DNA of 64,000 nucleotides, from assembly GCA_964106645.2 (NCBI GenBank), contig OZ067039.1; one strand, written 5' to 3'. The stretch comes from Podarcis pityusensis. Lineage: Eukaryota. Position 1 is the first letter of the stretch, and each line of letters starts with the position of its first letter. This document shows, one piece after another, positions 58,901-64,000 of the stretch. Made by a program: the position numbers.

Positions 58901-61900
58901 CCATTTTTATTCAGCACAGTGACACACATATTTCAAAGCCAGGAGCTTCTTCAGCTAATAATGAAAGGGCTTACATCCCATTTGTACGTAGGCAGATGGG
59001 CTGTTTTGACCGCATTCATTTGCAGTCCTTGAACAGATAAGAACTCCAAGTCCTCTTAATGCTACTGAACTATTGACACAAAGAACGTGTTTATCCTCTG
59101 CTGCCGTGCTGCCGTGCAAGGTAGAAAAATCGGCAGCTGCCCAAGGGTCCATTGTTTATAAGGTTTCTCGAGGGCATTCAGGTAACCTGGCTGTGATGTT
59201 TTCACTTTGACACCGCTTATGCAATTTGGCAATCGGCCGGTCTAACAATACCAGCTCGCAACACTGGATTCCCCTCTGCATGTGCATCTTGGATTGTGGT
59301 GGGAATGGGGGTGGGGAAGAGGTTGTACGCAGACCACATAGCAACAATGAGCAATATGGGCCCCTCCAGAAGTTGCTAGACTACAACTCCAGTCACCCCT
59401 GACCATCAGCTATCCTGTTTGGGCTGATAGGAGTTGAAATCCTAAGCACACTTAGACAGCTGCAGGTTCTTAACCCTAGGAAAGGGATCTTGAGGATGGG
59501 GTTGATAGCTCAATGAGAGCATCTGTCTGTGCCAGTTTTGAAGGAGTTGGATTTCACTTTTGCTTACAATATTGAACGGGGACAACAAAGTTCCTAAGCC
59601 ACCTAGGACGGTAAAATAAGGTAAGCGGCACATTCCCTTTCCTTGTCTCTCCCATCAGATATGCAGTCAACTTGCTATCGAAGAACGCTCTCTGCATTTG
59701 GAGCAGGTGTAAAATCTCTGCCCAGATCAAAGCCAGGGGGAAACGCTTTCTATCCGTTTAGAGCCAAGGAGGATGAAAACATCACTGAACTGGTTGACTC
59801 TTGTGTCAGTCATGAAGCCACTTCCTCCCTCCTTGGAACAGCTTTTCAATTAAAAGATTTAAATCAAACAAACATGCAAAGAAAGGCACACAAAAGTCTG
59901 CCTGAAGGCTGGAGGGGATGGTGAAGTAGAAACGAGCACTGGATTTGGAGCAAGTGCATGTATCATTTGAGGAGCAAAATCGGAGGGAAAAACAAGCATT
60001 AAAAAACCGAAAGGGGACCTCTATTTGAAGGCAAATCTGTTGGCTTCCCAAACGTAGGGGACATTGGCTCTTCTTTCAGCCAAGGCATTTTTAATATGAG
60101 CTGCAAGTGCTTCTCTGGCTCCCCCCCCCCCATTGAAATGACTGGAATTCACCCGGGCTGCAACTGTGTGACCAGGGGCCCTCTGCTGGTCAAGCCTGAG
60201 ACATCAAGGCAAATGCTGATTATGTTGGTTTTGGTTTGATTCGTCCTTCCACCATCCCTGAGCCATTGCAAGCAAAGGGTCTGTGCTTCCCATTGATCTA
60301 GGGGCAGGGATGCACATTGCAAAGTGGGGAAAGTGTCAGCATCGCCCTAGAGCCAGTGCACCAACTGGACTCATGCACCTCAACCCCGACTGGGCTAGGC
60401 GAGCTGGGTAGCACCGCCAGAGACCTCCTTTCTCACAGGAAACGGTCACAGTGCTGTGGACTCACAGCTCAGAGCTGAGAGCACCGGATTCACTGTCTCA
60501 ATAATACAGTCATTGCGCAGCAGAGTTTTGCAGAGTCTTGCAGAGTATAAACCACTCGGAGAGCAGCTCTGTAGAATATCTTCCTTTTATTCTATAACTA
60601 CAACTATGATACAAAACTACATACAGAGCTAAATATTCTAAGCATAAATCAATGCTACACTGAGAGTCTGCAGCTGCTCTTAGCAGCAATCTTATCTCTA
60701 GGATCTCTAACACTCTCACTCTCTCCGATACACTGACTGACTGACTCTCTCTCACACACACAGTGATATGTTGCTGGGCAGAATAAGTAGATAGGCAGGA
60801 CACGCCTCCTGCTCTCTGGAGAGTCAGCAGAGACCATCAGGAGACCATCAGGAGATTCTTGGGTATGGGAGGGGTGAAATCTCCTCATCCTCCCCCATTT
60901 CATCCGACCATTTCAAGAATCTTTAACATAACTGCAATTTGCACATACACTCCAAAAGTTGTTCTCTGCTTACAACCTTGGTTAACATATCTGCAGGTAT
61001 CTCTCTCCCGGCATATAAAACACTTTTACAATACCATTGAATAAGCAGCTTCTGGAAAAATCTTCACACACATTTCTTCCTTTCAAATACAAATTGACAT
61101 TTCTAATTAGGCAGATTTGAACAAATCATTTTTCAGAACTCAAATACACGCTTTCCTTCAAATATCAGGTAAGGAAATAAATAAAGCGTTTTGTGCTACT
61201 ACTCTCAGCACACTTCATGCTAGGTTTGAAAACCCCACCAGAGTTGCTCGTGACCGCAGTCTTTGCAAACTCTTCAGAAAACCTTTTCGGTGGTACACCC
61301 TTGGTTGTTCTCTCGGACCTGCGCAGAACTCTTTGATCCTCTTGTTCTGGTGCTTCCTCCTCTTTGGGAGAATGGGGAGCTAAAGTATATGAAGCTGCTA
61401 AGTCTGAGTCAGCGTCAGACTCACCTGAGGCTTTTGGGCTCTGATAATCTGTGCCATCATCTGGAACTACATTGGCATCAGGATTATCACCACCAACAAC
61501 ACTTGCCTCCCTCTTAACTTTCTTTGCCCCTTTTGCACCATCATCACAAATGGGATGGCACTGAAAAACACCAACTCTGTCCCATTGTGGATTGTCATCA
61601 ATACTCCTGGTCAGCCTTATGGTTTTCGTGTCTGTGATCAGAACACGATAAGACCCTTTCTCATATCCTAGGAAAACACCATGTTCTCCACGCTTGCTCA
61701 GTTTGTCACCCTGCGAGGTGTGCACCCAAACCTCCGAACCAAAAATTTTAAAATGCTTTACACATGGCATTCTTCCGTGAAGCATCTCATATGGGGTGCA
61801 ATTTGTACTAGACTGGTACCTCCTGTTATACACATGACAGAAAAACGAAAGAGCTTCAGCCCAATAGGGATTGGGCAGCCCCGAATCATGTAACAGTGTT

Positions 61901-64000
61901 CTGATTCCTTGCTGCAGGGTCTGGTTTACTCTCTCACATAAACCATTCTGCCAGGGTGATCTGGGCGTGGCCGTCCTATGCTCAATGCCCTGTTCAGAAA
62001 GAAAACTCTCAAACTCTTCTGAACAAAACTCTCCAACCTTGTCTGTGAAAAGAAAACGTACATTCTCATTATGTACATTTCTGAGCCATTTACAAAACTG
62101 GCGAAACTTGGTAAAGGCTTCAGCCTTTTTCTGCAGCATATAGACCCAAACATATTTCGAATAGGAGTCTATCAGAACCATGAAAAACCTTGAATTGCCT
62201 CTAGAGAGCGCTAGAGGCCCCACTAAGTCTGCATGAATGACTTCATATGGTTTCTTGGCCTCTCTCCCAGACTCTGTACCTTTGGGAGCTTGCCTTGCCT
62301 TACTCTCTGCACAAGAAACACATTTCATGTGGTAGGGACATTCTTTCAACTTCATACCCTGAACCATATCAGGCATTTTTGCCACAGCCTGGAAATTCAA
62401 ATGACCATAAATACGGTGGTAATAATGAATACATTGGTCATGCAACTTCTCATTCTTATCCACAGACAAGTTGCAACACTCTTTCTCAGTTGCTTCTGCA
62501 GTGCCTGTACCTGAAACAAAAGGCAATTGGTACAATCCATTTACACATTTTGCATACAGAATGAGCTTGCCATCTCTAAGAATTTCACAGCGAGATTTAG
62601 CAAACACCACCTTAAACCCTTGACGATCAAGCTGGGAAACACTCAACAAATTGTCCTGAATATCAGGTGCATACAGGACATTCTTAATAGTTGCATTCAG
62701 GCTCTTTAAGAACACAGTTCCCTGAGCCACACTCGTGAGAACTGTCCCATCTGCTTGATGAATTGCTTTCTCTTGCTTCTCAAGCTGAACAAAGAGATTC
62801 TTATCTTTGGCCACGTGGTTTGAACAGCCAGAGTCGACCACGAAGAAACTCCGCCCACGTTGACTGGAACAGCGAGAGATCAAGGCCTTTGAAGTAGCAG
62901 GTGCTTGGGGATTTCGTCCTCCTCCGCCTCTGCCTCTGAAGTTTCCCTTCTTCTTTGAAGACTTCTTACACTGGAAACTCAAATGGCCTTGTGCTCCACA
63001 CGAAAAGCACCGCTTCAATTTCAAAGCTTTAACAGCAGCAGTTTCACTTTCATTTTCCCCTGCTGAAGACTCAGGCACATTTTCAAGCACATTTTTAACA
63101 GCACAGTCCCGGCTTTCGCTAACAGCCTGTCTGCGATCCCACTCATTCAGAAGCACGCTAGACACATAATCTTCTGTTAGCCGGTCAGAAGGCATTGTGG
63201 AAATCTGGGCAGCTACTCCATCATAAGACTCATCTAGGCTATTGATCATCAGCATTGCAAACACAGCCTCTGAAATAGCCAGGTCTCGCTGAACAAGGTC
63301 CTGTCTGAGACGCTTTAATTGAGATAGATGGCTAGGCAAATCACCACCTTTCTCCAACTGCAGCCTGCACAGCTTCTTAAAGAAAATCACACTGGAACCA
63401 GCATTTTGTCTAAGATGCATATCTCTCAACTTATGCCAAACAGCTTGTGCAGTCTCTTGATCCTCTAAGTTCACCAGCAAGTGGTCTGAAACACTCAAAA
63501 TAATTGTCCCTCGGGCTTTCATATCTGCAGCATGCCACTCAGCCCAATCATCATCATCCTTATCTGGAGGGTCATCTTCTATCGTGTGAAATAGCTTTTC
63601 CCTCTGTAAAAGCGCTTTCATCTTTACTTGCCAAACTGCATAGGTTTCAGGCGTGAGGAGAGGAAAGGACAGAGCCATCTGGCCAGAATGTGCACAGGCC
63701 ATGTCTGCTATTACTTAGAGCAAGACACTTCCCTCGTGCAACACAGATAAAGCCTTGACTCCCTCAGCCACTCTCTCTCCCACTCAGAGCGCAATTAACA
63801 GGCAAACAGGGATGCTATCTTCTTCCTTTGGCAGTCAGCAACATACCTCCATAAATCAAGCAGCAGCAAGAGCAACAGCGGCAGCTTGAACACTCTGCTC
63901 CAAAACAGCTCTGCTTCTGGGCACCGCAAATCAGTCCAGCATGCAGTGTCCGTTCCACCGTCCGGCAATCAGCAACAGAAACCTCTGGCGACTGGGACGC

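What the first reader, a model, noticed from the sequence alone, without database searches (positions are those of the whole stretch)
60888..63702. RT-less Ty1/copia element with an intact Gag-protease-integrase ORF
Seen: 845 codons without stop or frameshift, with a strong Kozak context, CCHC knuckle, DSG protease, HHCC and a complete D,D(35)E triad. The ORF stops just after the RRSxR linker, where copia RT normally begins, and only ~265 bp separate the stop from the PPT. Established: autonomous copia elements need RT-RNase H, roughly 1.5 kb more. Inference: this may be a stable semi-autonomous lineage that supplies its own particle, protease and integrase and borrows RT in trans, possibly one half of a complementary pair. 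Alternatively it could be a domesticated Gag-IN gene. Copia elements are absent from mammals and birds, so such a system in a squamate would be notable.
Basis: partly seen in the sequence, partly recalled or inferred. Interest (0 to 1): 0.75.

Follow-up and report, generated by a model that had tools for sequence, protein, structure and literature searches.

The report
Copia retrotransposon missing its reverse transcriptase
This is a copia-type jumping gene that lost the stretch encoding its copying enzyme in one internal deletion but still carries an unbroken gene for its shell protein, protease and integrase; crippled, helper-dependent copies like this are a familiar kind of genomic parasite.

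Summary
On the minus strand, 61165-63702 is an unbroken 845-codon ORF with copia-type Gag, a CCHC knuckle, a DSG protease barrel and an HHCC plus D,D35E integrase, and no reverse transcriptase. An RT-bearing relative of 1338 aa (P0002, 67% identical) aligns along almost the whole ORF. About 450 of its residues, including all of RVT_2 and most of RNase H, have no counterpart here. Its last 58 residues match the 268-nt spacer between the stop and the polypurine run. So this is an internal-deletion derivative of a full-length copia, not a primitively RT-less design. Four other 845-aa proteins (98% identical, identical tail) share the junction, so it is no assembly error. Whether they are copies, alleles or orthologues cannot be told: no eukaryotic DNA collection was open, and the 5' LTR lies outside the window. 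An intact ORF is expected by chance at this divergence, and the window copy's private changes do not avoid conserved columns. Domestication is not supported. Copia is already known, and recently active, in squamates (PMC7561263, PMC4657000). This is an ordinary non-autonomous element of modest interest.

The parts
60923..63702 (-). Whole gag-pol gene as it stands, from the start codon to the natural pol stop that follows the C-terminal remnant. It is broken by one large internal deletion (RT and most of RNase H). Its 3' part also carries two stops (counting the one that ends the ORF) and one frameshift.
61165..63702 (-). Intact 845-codon ORF (stop included) encoding Gag, protease and integrase
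   Evidence: 98% identical to P0001, P0082, P0083 and P0084, all 845 aa.
63124..63621 (-). Gag, copia type (aa 28-193)
   Evidence: Pfam Retrotran_gag_2, E 2.5e-24. PDB 'Copia VLP protein' 8vvw_A: E 2.8e-14 for aa 18-246, and E 3.2e-43 with the family profile.
62968..63009 (-). CCHC zinc knuckle (aa 232-245)
   Evidence: Regex match. Pfam zf-CCHC scores 19.1 bits, below its 20.8 cut-off. C232, C235, H240 and C245 are at least 90% conserved in A2.
62614..62844 (-). Protease region (aa 287-363), with DSG at 290-292
   Evidence: Pfam Pol_BBD, E 2.7e-18. D290 is invariant in 38 sequences. The fold was not tested (one search was not accepted).
62311..62442 (-). Integrase N-terminal HHCC zinc-binding stretch (aa 421-464)
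   Evidence: Regex match. gag_pre-integrs scores 18.3 bits, below its cut-off. C461 and C464 are invariant.
61897..62256 (-). Integrase catalytic core (aa 483-602) with D492, D554 and E590
   Evidence: Pfam rve, E 7.7e-10. PDB 'Integrase' 7z0h_W, E 2.4e-16. The triad is invariant in A2.
61600..61779 (-). Integrase SH3-like domain (aa 642-701)
   Evidence: Pfam SH3_retrovirus, E 6.6e-14
60926..61113 (-). Decayed remnant of the pol C-terminus (end of RNase H), outer bounds. It matches the last 58 residues of P0002 and the C-terminal end of P0085.
   Evidence: tblastn linked E 4e-6. P0085 E 7e-5. In blastx against 358 held proteins, 3 were hit and all 3 at their C-terminal ends.
60888..60896 (-). 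Polypurine run GGGGGAGGA, the putative PPT. It lies about 27 nt after the natural pol stop.
   Evidence: The function is inferred from its position.
60586..60887 (-). Start of the putative 3' LTR, from the TG at 60887-60886 down to the single AATAAA at 60591-60586. The true end of the LTR is not established.
   Evidence: Read directly; AATAAA located. No second LTR copy in the window to compare with.
63703..64000 (-). Leader in view (298 nt), cut by the window end. It contains no LTR sequence, and a PBS was not identified.

Best explanation
This is a Ty1/copia LTR retrotransposon that lost its reverse transcriptase and most of its RNase H in one internal deletion.

Shown:
- A full-length relative aligns along nearly the whole ORF.
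- About 450 of that relative's residues are missing here, including the entire RVT_2 domain.
- The relative's last 58 residues reappear, decayed, between the ORF's stop and the polypurine run.
- The first remnant piece lies in the ORF's own frame.
- The remaining ORF still encodes Gag, protease and integrase with all catalytic residues in place.
- The same deleted form exists in at least five slightly different versions.

Inferred:
- The element cannot copy itself.
- If its RNA keeps the cis signals (LTR ends, PBS, packaging signal, PPT), it can be packaged into particles made by itself and/or a related autonomous copia. It would then be reverse-transcribed by that relative's RT, which enters particles as part of the relative's polyprotein.
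- My reading is that the deleted form has been copied this way at least once, as a small, young, low-copy subfamily. The copy in the window is now drifting without constraint.

Confidence by part: about 0.95 that it is an internal-deletion derivative; about 0.5 for the whole statement, including copying in trans.
For: Architecture:
- ORF and domains.
- P0002 (1338 aa, RVT_2 at 861-1103) aligns with the ORF at 67% identity over 833 columns.
- tblastn of P0002 against the window gives one HSP over P0002 residues 8-831 and two over 1281-1338. The region between finds nothing at E <= 10.
- P0085, an independent RT/RNase H piece, also matches the spacer by its C-terminal end (E 7e-5).
- Of 358 held proteins only 3 hit the spacer, all at their C-terminal ends.

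Not a one-off artefact:
- The cluster of P0001 holds 4 distinct 845-aa sequences on 5 contigs.
- 828 of 845 columns are invariant across the five variants, and 0 of the 17 tail residues vary.
- The window differs from the other four at 13-16 residues; they differ from one another at 2-5.

Hint that time passed with the ORF kept open:
- The 239-nt stretch after the ORF carries two stops (including the ORF's own) and one frameshift, while the 2,538-nt ORF carries none.
- The remnant keeps about 29 of 58 residues of P0002, whereas P0002 and P0085 share 41 of 57 there.
- By hand: the chance that 1 to 3 random disabling hits all land in the 239 nt is 0.086 down to 6e-4.

Window copy drifting:
- 2 of its 11 private changes fall on columns at least 90% conserved among 30 distant relatives (neutral share 0.077). 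5 of 11 fall on columns shared with P0002 (neutral share 0.67). Neither differs significantly from neutral expectation.
- It has lost 1 of the 34 invariant columns that its four near relatives keep.
Against: - No DNA of any other copy could be seen. Copy number, different flanks, TSDs and LTR pairs, which are the direct marks of copying, are all missing.
- The four other variants may be alleles or orthologues of a single locus. The window's exact protein is not in the 15-billion-protein collection: the best hit is 98% identical.
- No short ORF pieces of further, broken copies were found (0 of 177 candidates).
- No RT-bearing partner closer than 67% was found among proteins of 464-1479 aa. The only closer-looking RT piece, P0085, is no nearer to the remnant than P0002 is.
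- The 5' LTR and PBS are outside the window, so it is not shown that the cis signals are complete.
- The stops after the junction could be direct by-products of the deletion. That would leave only one post-deletion break (p about 0.09).
- About 10% of 58-column stretches of the ORF are as diverged from P0002 as the remnant is.
Confidence: 0.5

Rival explanations
1. Single-locus deletion that was never copied. A full-length copia inserted here and later lost RT-RNase H in place, for example by illegitimate recombination. The four other 845-aa sequences are alleles or orthologues of this same locus in other individuals or closely related taxa.
For: - Only 4 other variants exist, and they are very close to each other (2-5 differences).
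- No fragments of further copies were found (0 of 177 candidates).
- The window's exact protein is absent from the collection, as expected if the other records come from other populations or species.
- There is no other copy or solo LTR in the 64-kb window.
- The window copy shows no sign of constraint.
Against: - If everything had been neutral since insertion, disabling changes should fall in proportion to length. Yet the 239 nt after the ORF hold two stops and a frameshift, and the 2,538-nt ORF holds none (by hand p = 0.086 to 6e-4, depending on how many of these arose with the deletion itself).
- The remnant is also more diverged from P0002 than the ORF is (about 50% against 67%).
Confidence: 0.27
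2. One reading: a stable semi-autonomous lineage. Gag, protease and integrase are kept by selection over many rounds of copying, for example because the element's own Gag favours its own RNA. RT is always borrowed from an autonomous relative.
For: - The same junction and the same 845-codon length occur in all five variants.
- All catalytic residues are intact, and the RT-less group keeps 34 of the 34 invariant columns that P0002 keeps.
- The pol remnant has decayed (one frameshift, stops, about 50% identity) while the ORF has not.
- Partly coding 'semi-autonomous' LTR elements are described in plants: TR-GAG (PMC4350172, passages) and GAG/PROT families (PMC13570524, passages).
Against: - The five variants are so close (at most 16 of 845 residues) that intactness needs no selection: P(no stop) is 0.36-0.50.
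- The RT-less group has lost 6 columns that are at least 80% conserved and that P0002 keeps, against 0 the other way (sign test by hand p = 0.03). This points to relaxed constraint on protease and integrase, not to maintained constraint.
- The family is tiny in the databases.
- No partner was identified.
- dN/dS could not be computed because no DNA of relatives was available.
Confidence: 0.17
3. Domesticated host gene. A Gag-protease-integrase protein of copia origin has been recruited for a cellular function and is kept by selection at a fixed locus.
For: - The ORF is long and intact, with a good start context.
- Integrase-derived host genes exist in vertebrates, such as the Gypsy-integrase genes (PMC3424704; search listing and start of abstract only).
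Against: - Element hallmarks remain directly downstream: the pol C-terminal remnant, the purine run followed by TG, and AATAAA.
- Among 81 hits at E <= 1e-10, the only named vertebrate protein is P0003 of Podarcis muralis. It is 47% identical over 41% of the query, and its homology ends inside the integrase core, so it is another, broken copy.
- The next named lizard hits are 35-39% identical. A conserved squamate gene should have shown close named orthologues.
- The window copy's private changes hit near-invariant integrase columns.
Confidence: 0.04
4. Assembly or sequencing artefact: a mis-join that removed RT from a full-length copy.
For: Repeats are prone to collapse in assemblies (general knowledge).
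Against: - Four independent protein records on five other contigs have the same length and an identical 17-residue tail after the junction.
- The window has no N.
Confidence: 0.02

Closest known systems
Autonomous Ty1/copia elements (Pseudoviridae). Nearest here is the unnamed 1338-aa polyprotein P0002. Named context: Drosophila copia capsid in the PDB ('Copia VLP protein', 8vvw), and 'Copia-6' of Anolis carolinensis in Repbase as cited in PMC4657000.
   Same: - Copia-type Gag, CCHC knuckle, DSG protease, and an integrase placed before the RT position.
- One continuous gag-pol frame.
- A purine run shortly after the pol stop.
- 67% identity to P0002 over nearly the whole ORF.
   Different: - The RVT_2 domain and most of RNase H are absent, about 450 residues of P0002.
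- It is therefore not autonomous.
TR-GAG elements of plants (non-autonomous LTR retrotransposons with only a gag ORF; PMC4350172, abstract and passages)
   Same: - Short LTR-type element that keeps part of the coding capacity intact.
- Must borrow enzymes in trans.
- No close autonomous partner found.
   Different: - TR-GAG keeps only Gag; this element also keeps protease and integrase and lacks only RT-RNase H.
- The host is an animal, probably a squamate, not a plant.
- LTR pair and TSD were not seen here.
BARE-2 / BARE-1 pair of barley (PMC4350172 and PMC13570524, passages)
   Same: A copia-superfamily element defective in one function that is complemented by an autonomous relative.
   Different: - BARE-2 lacks functional Gag and keeps pol; here it is the reverse for RT.
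- The partner is known for BARE-2 and unknown here.
Partly coding non-autonomous LTR families of sugar beet (PMC13570524, passages): 28 families with GAG/PROT only and 15 with at least one further, partly decayed POL domain
   Same: - A continuum of deletion derivatives that retain some domains.
- Small families.
- The autonomous progenitor is often not traceable.
   Different: - Those domains are described as partly decayed; here Gag-PR-IN is fully open with catalytic residues intact.
- Their per-family domain tables are in supplements that I could not see, so an equivalent Gag-PR-IN form there cannot be excluded.
Integrase-derived host genes of vertebrates (Gypsy integrase genes GIN1/GIN2; PMC3424704, search listing and start of abstract only)
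   Same: A retroelement integrase in a long open frame in a vertebrate genome.
   Different: - Those derive from Ty3/gypsy, are single-copy conserved genes, and have lost element hallmarks.
- This one is copia-type, keeps its pol remnant and PPT, and has no close named orthologues.

Membership tests
Ty1/copia LTR retrotransposon | Copia-type Gag | tested here: met
   Pfam Retrotran_gag_2 E 2.5e-24. PDB 'Copia VLP protein' E 2.8e-14, and E 3.2e-43 with the family profile.
Ty1/copia LTR retrotransposon | Aspartic protease | tested here: inconclusive
   Pfam Pol_BBD E 2.7e-18 and an invariant D290 in DSG. No protease chain is among the 60 PDB hits listed. The fold test could not be run.
Ty1/copia LTR retrotransposon | Integrase with HHCC and D,D35E, placed upstream of RT (the copia domain order) | tested here: met
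   rve E 7.7e-10, the motifs, and the invariant triad. In P0002 the order is IN (486-586) then RVT_2 (861-1103). In the window IN precedes the pol-tail remnant.
Ty1/copia LTR retrotransposon | Reverse transcriptase of the RVT_2 type | tested here: not met
   No RVT_2 in the ORF or in 125 other open frames. No tblastn match to P0002 residues 832-1280. It is absent by deletion, so the element is a defective descendant of the family, not a working member.
Ty1/copia LTR retrotransposon | RNase H | tested here: not met
   Only the C-terminal ~58 residues survive, with one frameshift.
Ty1/copia LTR retrotransposon | Two LTRs, PBS, target-site duplication | not testable with these tools
   The window ends 298 nt upstream of the ATG. 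There is no repeat between the leader and the 3' side. No eukaryotic DNA collection was open.
Ty1/copia LTR retrotransposon | Polypurine tract just upstream of the 3' LTR | tested here: inconclusive
   GGGGGAGGA followed by TG lies about 27 nt after the natural pol stop. Purine runs of this length are common (5 in 630 nt).
Non-autonomous LTR retrotransposon (helper-dependent derivative) | Lacks at least one protein needed for its own copying | tested here: met
   RT and RNase H are missing.
Non-autonomous LTR retrotransposon (helper-dependent derivative) | Several copies with the same structure at different sites (different TSDs) | not testable with these tools
   Five protein variants share the junction, but their loci cannot be seen.
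Non-autonomous LTR retrotransposon (helper-dependent derivative) | Autonomous partner sharing LTR, PBS or leader | not testable with these tools
   Only proteins could be searched. The nearest RT-bearing protein is 67% identical.
TR-GAG | Single ORF coding for Gag only | tested here: not met
   The ORF also holds protease and integrase.
Domesticated retroelement gene | Purifying selection on the protein | tested here: inconclusive
   dN/dS is not computable. As a proxy, 2 of 11 private changes fall on near-invariant columns, and there is no avoidance of conserved columns. The group shows 6 losses against 0 relative to P0002. Power is low.
Domesticated retroelement gene | Loss of element hallmarks, and conserved orthologues in related species | tested here: not met
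   The pol remnant, purine run and AATAAA are retained. There is no close named orthologue among 81 hits. Synteny was not testable.

The most novel reading that the evidence does not exclude
A vertebrate copia sub-lineage that has persisted as a 'semi-autonomous' parasite. After losing RT-RNase H, it has kept its own Gag, protease and integrase open through repeated rounds of copying, while the useless pol tail decayed. It relies on the RT of a related autonomous copia in the same genome. That would be an animal counterpart of plant TR-GAG or BARE-2-type partnerships, with a division of labour not yet named.
Probability: 0.17. Interest if true: 0.55.

Novelty: new member of a known kind. Interest (0 to 1): 0.3.

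Why it matters
Defective, helper-dependent LTR elements are well documented in plants and much less so in vertebrates. A copia derivative that lacks only RT-RNase H yet keeps Gag, protease and integrase fully open is a clean natural case. It could be used to ask which element-encoded proteins are worth keeping in cis once the polymerase can be borrowed.

If a genome-wide census showed many such copies with constrained coding sequence, it would extend the 'semi-autonomous' category to vertebrates. If it is a single decaying locus, it is routine repeat annotation.

In practice, ORFs like this get annotated as host genes. Two NCBI lizard gene models met here rest on copia fragments.

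Tried and rejected
1. LTR pair. No direct repeat links the 298-nt leader to the 3' side, and no second copy or solo LTR lies in the window. LTR identity, the LTR's end and the TSD are therefore unknown.
2. Broken further copies. A search of shorter proteins with ORF residues 640-845 gave 0 hits among 177 candidates.
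3. Closer RT-bearing parent. Among short proteins matching the RT/RNase H part of P0002, 1 of the 120 listed exceeds 40% identity (P0085, 70%). Its tail is no closer to the window's remnant than P0002's is.
4. Chimeric origin of the tail from a distant copia lineage. Rejected: the spacer's best matches are P0085 and P0002, the ORF's own clade. Within-clade chimerism is not excluded.
5. CpG content as an age mark. The ORF's o/e is 0.37 against a window median of 0.25, about the 90th percentile. This is uninformative.
6. Bacterial-type promoter and terminator scan of the LTR zone. Irrelevant for a eukaryote.
7. ESM Atlas. It holds neither the window's protein nor P0001.
8. Structure prediction and fold search. 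The job was not accepted, so there is no fold-level test of the protease.
9. tRNA and Rfam scans gave nothing that bears on a PBS. A PBS test against tRNA 3' ends was left out, because no tRNA sequence came from a tool.
10. Splicing as the origin of the deletion (a copied spliced RNA). Considered, but not testable without the parent's DNA.
11. Host identity. It could not be verified. The nearest named relatives are from lacertid lizards, which is consistent with a squamate.
12. No spliced gene model was needed, because the ORF is continuous. Nothing in the window or among the hits looked human.

Full report
OBSERVATION

The mechanical ORF list gives one long frame at 61165..63702 on the minus strand, 845 aa. 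Its translation has no internal stop. Pfam finds four domains in copia order:
- Retrotran_gag_2, aa 28-193, E 2.5e-24
- Pol_BBD, aa 287-363, E 2.7e-18
- rve, aa 483-583, E 7.7e-10
- SH3_retrovirus, aa 642-701, E 6.6e-14

zf-CCHC and gag_pre-integrs score just below their curated cut-offs. No RVT_2 is found.

The start context has A at -3 and G at +4. In a 38-sequence alignment of copia polyproteins, D290, C461, C464, D492, D554 and E590 are invariant.

Solved structures agree. Residues 18-246 match chains named 'Copia VLP protein' (8vvw_A, E 2.8e-14). Residues 461-689 match an 'Integrase' chain (7z0h_W, E 2.4e-16). With the family profile these become E 3.2e-43 and 2.6e-42.

From the ORF's stop to the purine run GGGGGAGGA (60896..60888) there are 268 nt, and the run is followed by TG.

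WHAT THE SPACER IS

The word-indexed protein search (81 proteins at E <= 1e-10 among 7,999 scored) returned three informative hits:
- P0001: 98% identical and also 845 aa.
- P0002: 67% identical, 1338 aa, with RVT_2.
- P0003: Podarcis muralis XP_077779123.1, 47% identical over 41% of the query.

The other 78 hits are at most 33% identical.

P0002 aligns with the ORF over 833 columns, and the alignment stops shortly before the ORF's stop. P0002's RVT_2 domain lies at residues 861-1103. tblastn of P0002 against the whole window gives one HSP for its residues 8-831, nothing for 832-1280, and two HSPs for 1281-1338, its very last residues. Those two fall inside the spacer at outer bounds 61113..60926 (linked E 4e-6).

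A second, independent RT/RNase H piece, P0085, equals P0002 residues 1053-1337 at 70% identity. It also matches the spacer by its C-terminal end (E 7e-5). In blastx of the spacer against all 358 proteins held, only 3 hit (P0085, P0002, P0092), all 3 at their C-terminal ends.

So the spacer is the decayed end of pol. The element descends from a full-length copia by one internal deletion of about 450 codons, covering all of RT and most of RNase H. The first remnant piece lies in the same frame as the ORF. Breaks in the gag-pol gene as it stands are one large deletion, two stops (counting the one that ends the ORF) and one frameshift.

IS THE DELETED FORM UNIQUE?

No. The 90% cluster of P0001 holds four distinct sequences (P0001, P0082, P0083, P0084). 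All are 845 aa, on five contigs of 3,146-3,766 bp.

Aligned with the window's ORF, 828 of 845 columns are invariant, and none of the 17 residues after the junction varies. The window differs from the four at 13-16 residues, and they differ from each other at 2-5. Eleven of the 17 variable columns are private to the window. This excludes an assembly error and shows at least two distinguishable lines of the deleted form.

It does not show different loci. The records are unnamed contigs whose DNA I could not see, and the window's exact protein is not in the collection.

A search for shorter ORF pieces matching residues 640-845 found none (0 of 177 candidates). The exhaustive search of 1.84 billion representatives puts the family in its own 50% cluster. 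The next representatives are 24-39% identical.

SELECTION OR YOUTH?

dN/dS needs DNA of relatives, which was not available. Four proxies were used.

(a) Chance of staying open. 4.7% of single-base changes in the ORF make a stop. For 11-16 amino-acid differences, an unconstrained ORF stays stop-free with probability 0.50-0.36. Intactness at this divergence therefore proves nothing.

(b) Where the window's private changes fall. Of its 11 private changes, 5 lie on columns where the near group equals P0002 (neutral share 0.67, p = 0.195). Two lie on columns at least 90% conserved in 30 distant relatives (neutral share 0.077, p = 0.205). Both of those are in the integrase part. There is no avoidance of conserved positions.

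(c) Lineage-level loss of conserved columns. P0002 was left out of the reference set of 29 relatives.
- Of 117 columns at least 80% conserved, P0002 keeps 86, the RT-less group keeps 80 and the window copy keeps 78.
- Six are lost only in the RT-less group (protease barrel 2, integrase core 3, SH3 region 1), and none only in P0002 (sign test by hand p = 0.03).
- Of 36 invariant columns, the counts kept are 34, 34 and 33.
So the catalytic cores are intact, but constraint looks somewhat relaxed.

(d) Evidence pointing the other way. The 239 nt after the ORF hold two stops and a frameshift, while 2,538 nt of ORF hold none. The remnant keeps about 29 of 58 residues of P0002, whereas P0002 and P0085 share 41 of 57 there. 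By hand, the chance that 1-3 random disabling hits all fall in the 239 nt is 0.086 down to 6e-4. However, the stops may have come with the deletion itself, and 9.8% of 58-column stretches of the ORF are as diverged as the remnant.

Taken together, there is a weak hint that the ORF was kept open for some time after the deletion, and no sign of constraint on the window copy.

SURROUNDINGS

- The window has no N.
- No other copia piece, solo LTR or repeat of the leader occurs in it.
- Of 125 other open frames, 4 have Pfam hits: two RVT_1 pieces at 6403-7779 (+), which are LINE type, and two C2H2 zinc-finger frames. None has RVT_2.
- One weak tRNA-like hit lies at 49434-49498. ARAGORN calls nothing.
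- Downstream of the purine run there is a single AATAAA at 60591..60586, which fits an LTR. The LTR's end cannot be fixed without a second copy.
- CpG o/e of the ORF is 0.37, against a window median of 0.25. This is not informative.

HOST AND RELATIVES

The host could not be verified. Named relatives are from lacertid lizards:
- Podarcis muralis, 47%.
- Podarcis lilfordi CAI5768826.1, 39%.
- Zootoca vivipara XP_060129920.1, 35%.

Two hits are from a pseudoscorpion. Six of the 10 representatives looked up carry no name. This fits a squamate origin.

P0003's homology ends inside the integrase core, so it is a gene model on another, broken copy and does not share the window's junction.

LITERATURE

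I saw passages found by term search, unless stated otherwise.
- Copia is listed among the LTR clades of Anolis carolinensis, with 1,962 polymorphic insertions tabulated (PMC7561263).
- Copia is absent from mammals and birds but present in other vertebrates, including reptiles (PMC4350176). No traces are found in the human genome (PMC5753468).
- The corn-snake amel allele is a 5,832-bp insertion with Ty1/Copia RNase H, RT, integrase and copia gag domains. Its best Repbase hit is Copia-6 of A. carolinensis (PMC4657000).
- Defective LTR elements are thought to replicate by using proteins of autonomous relatives (PMC6894440).
- Plant categories include TRIM, LARD, BARE-2 and TR-GAG (PMC4350172, abstract and passages).
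- In sugar beet, 43 of 115 non-autonomous families retain domain remnants, and some are called semi-autonomous (PMC13570524).
- Integrase-derived vertebrate host genes: PMC3424704 (search listing and start of abstract only).
- PMC2774666 passages gave nothing specific on squamate copia.

I found no description of a vertebrate copia that lacks only RT-RNase H and keeps Gag-PR-IN intact. These searches were not exhaustive. Repbase and the papers' supplements could not be searched.

VERDICT

The thing is real, and it is a deletion derivative of a copia element that cannot copy itself. 'Stable lineage', 'complementary pair' and 'domesticated gene' are not supported by what could be tested.

What stays open is copy number, flanks and TSDs, the 5' LTR and PBS, the partner, codon-level selection, expression, and the protease fold.

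I file it as a new member of a known kind, the non-autonomous, internally deleted LTR retrotransposons, with modest interest.

Noticed in passing
window 6403-7779 (+): Two adjacent open frames with LINE-type reverse transcriptase (Pfam RVT_1, E 1.3e-13 and 1.2e-16). This is a broken non-LTR retrotransposon, unrelated to the copia element.
   Followed up: partly
window 29533-29922 (-) and 38471-39607 (-): Open frames with C2H2 zinc fingers. The first is clear (zf-C2H2, E 1.2e-8). The second is a 379-aa frame with only a weak zf-H2C2_2 hit. Whether they are exons of a zinc-finger gene or repeat-borne was not examined.
   Followed up: no
window 49434-49498 (+): Rfam tRNA match just above the gathering score (31.4 bits against 29) that ARAGORN does not call. 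It may be the head of a tRNA-derived SINE.
   Followed up: no
window 58769-58831: An (AAG)n microsatellite about 1.6 kb beyond the putative 3' LTR zone.
   Followed up: no
P0206 (NCBI XP_060129920.1, Zootoca vivipara) and P0003 (XP_077779123.1, Podarcis muralis): Two NCBI lizard gene models rest on copia sequence. 'Protein FAM168A isoform X1' matches the copia gag-protease part (query 13-393, 35% identity). 'Uncharacterized protein LOC144324910' is a degenerate gag-protease-integrase copy. They look like annotation that has absorbed repeat fragments.
   Followed up: partly
contigs behind P0001, P0082, P0083 and P0084: The contigs carrying the 845-aa ORF are 3,146-3,766 bp long. That is close to the 3,113 nt from the purine run to the window's end. 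It would fit contigs that stop at LTR borders or transcripts of the element, and it suggests the 5' LTR begins just beyond the window. This is untested.
   Followed up: no
window 15082-16405 (-): Two adjacent open frames of 267 and 178 aa have no Pfam match. Their nature is unknown.
   Followed up: no
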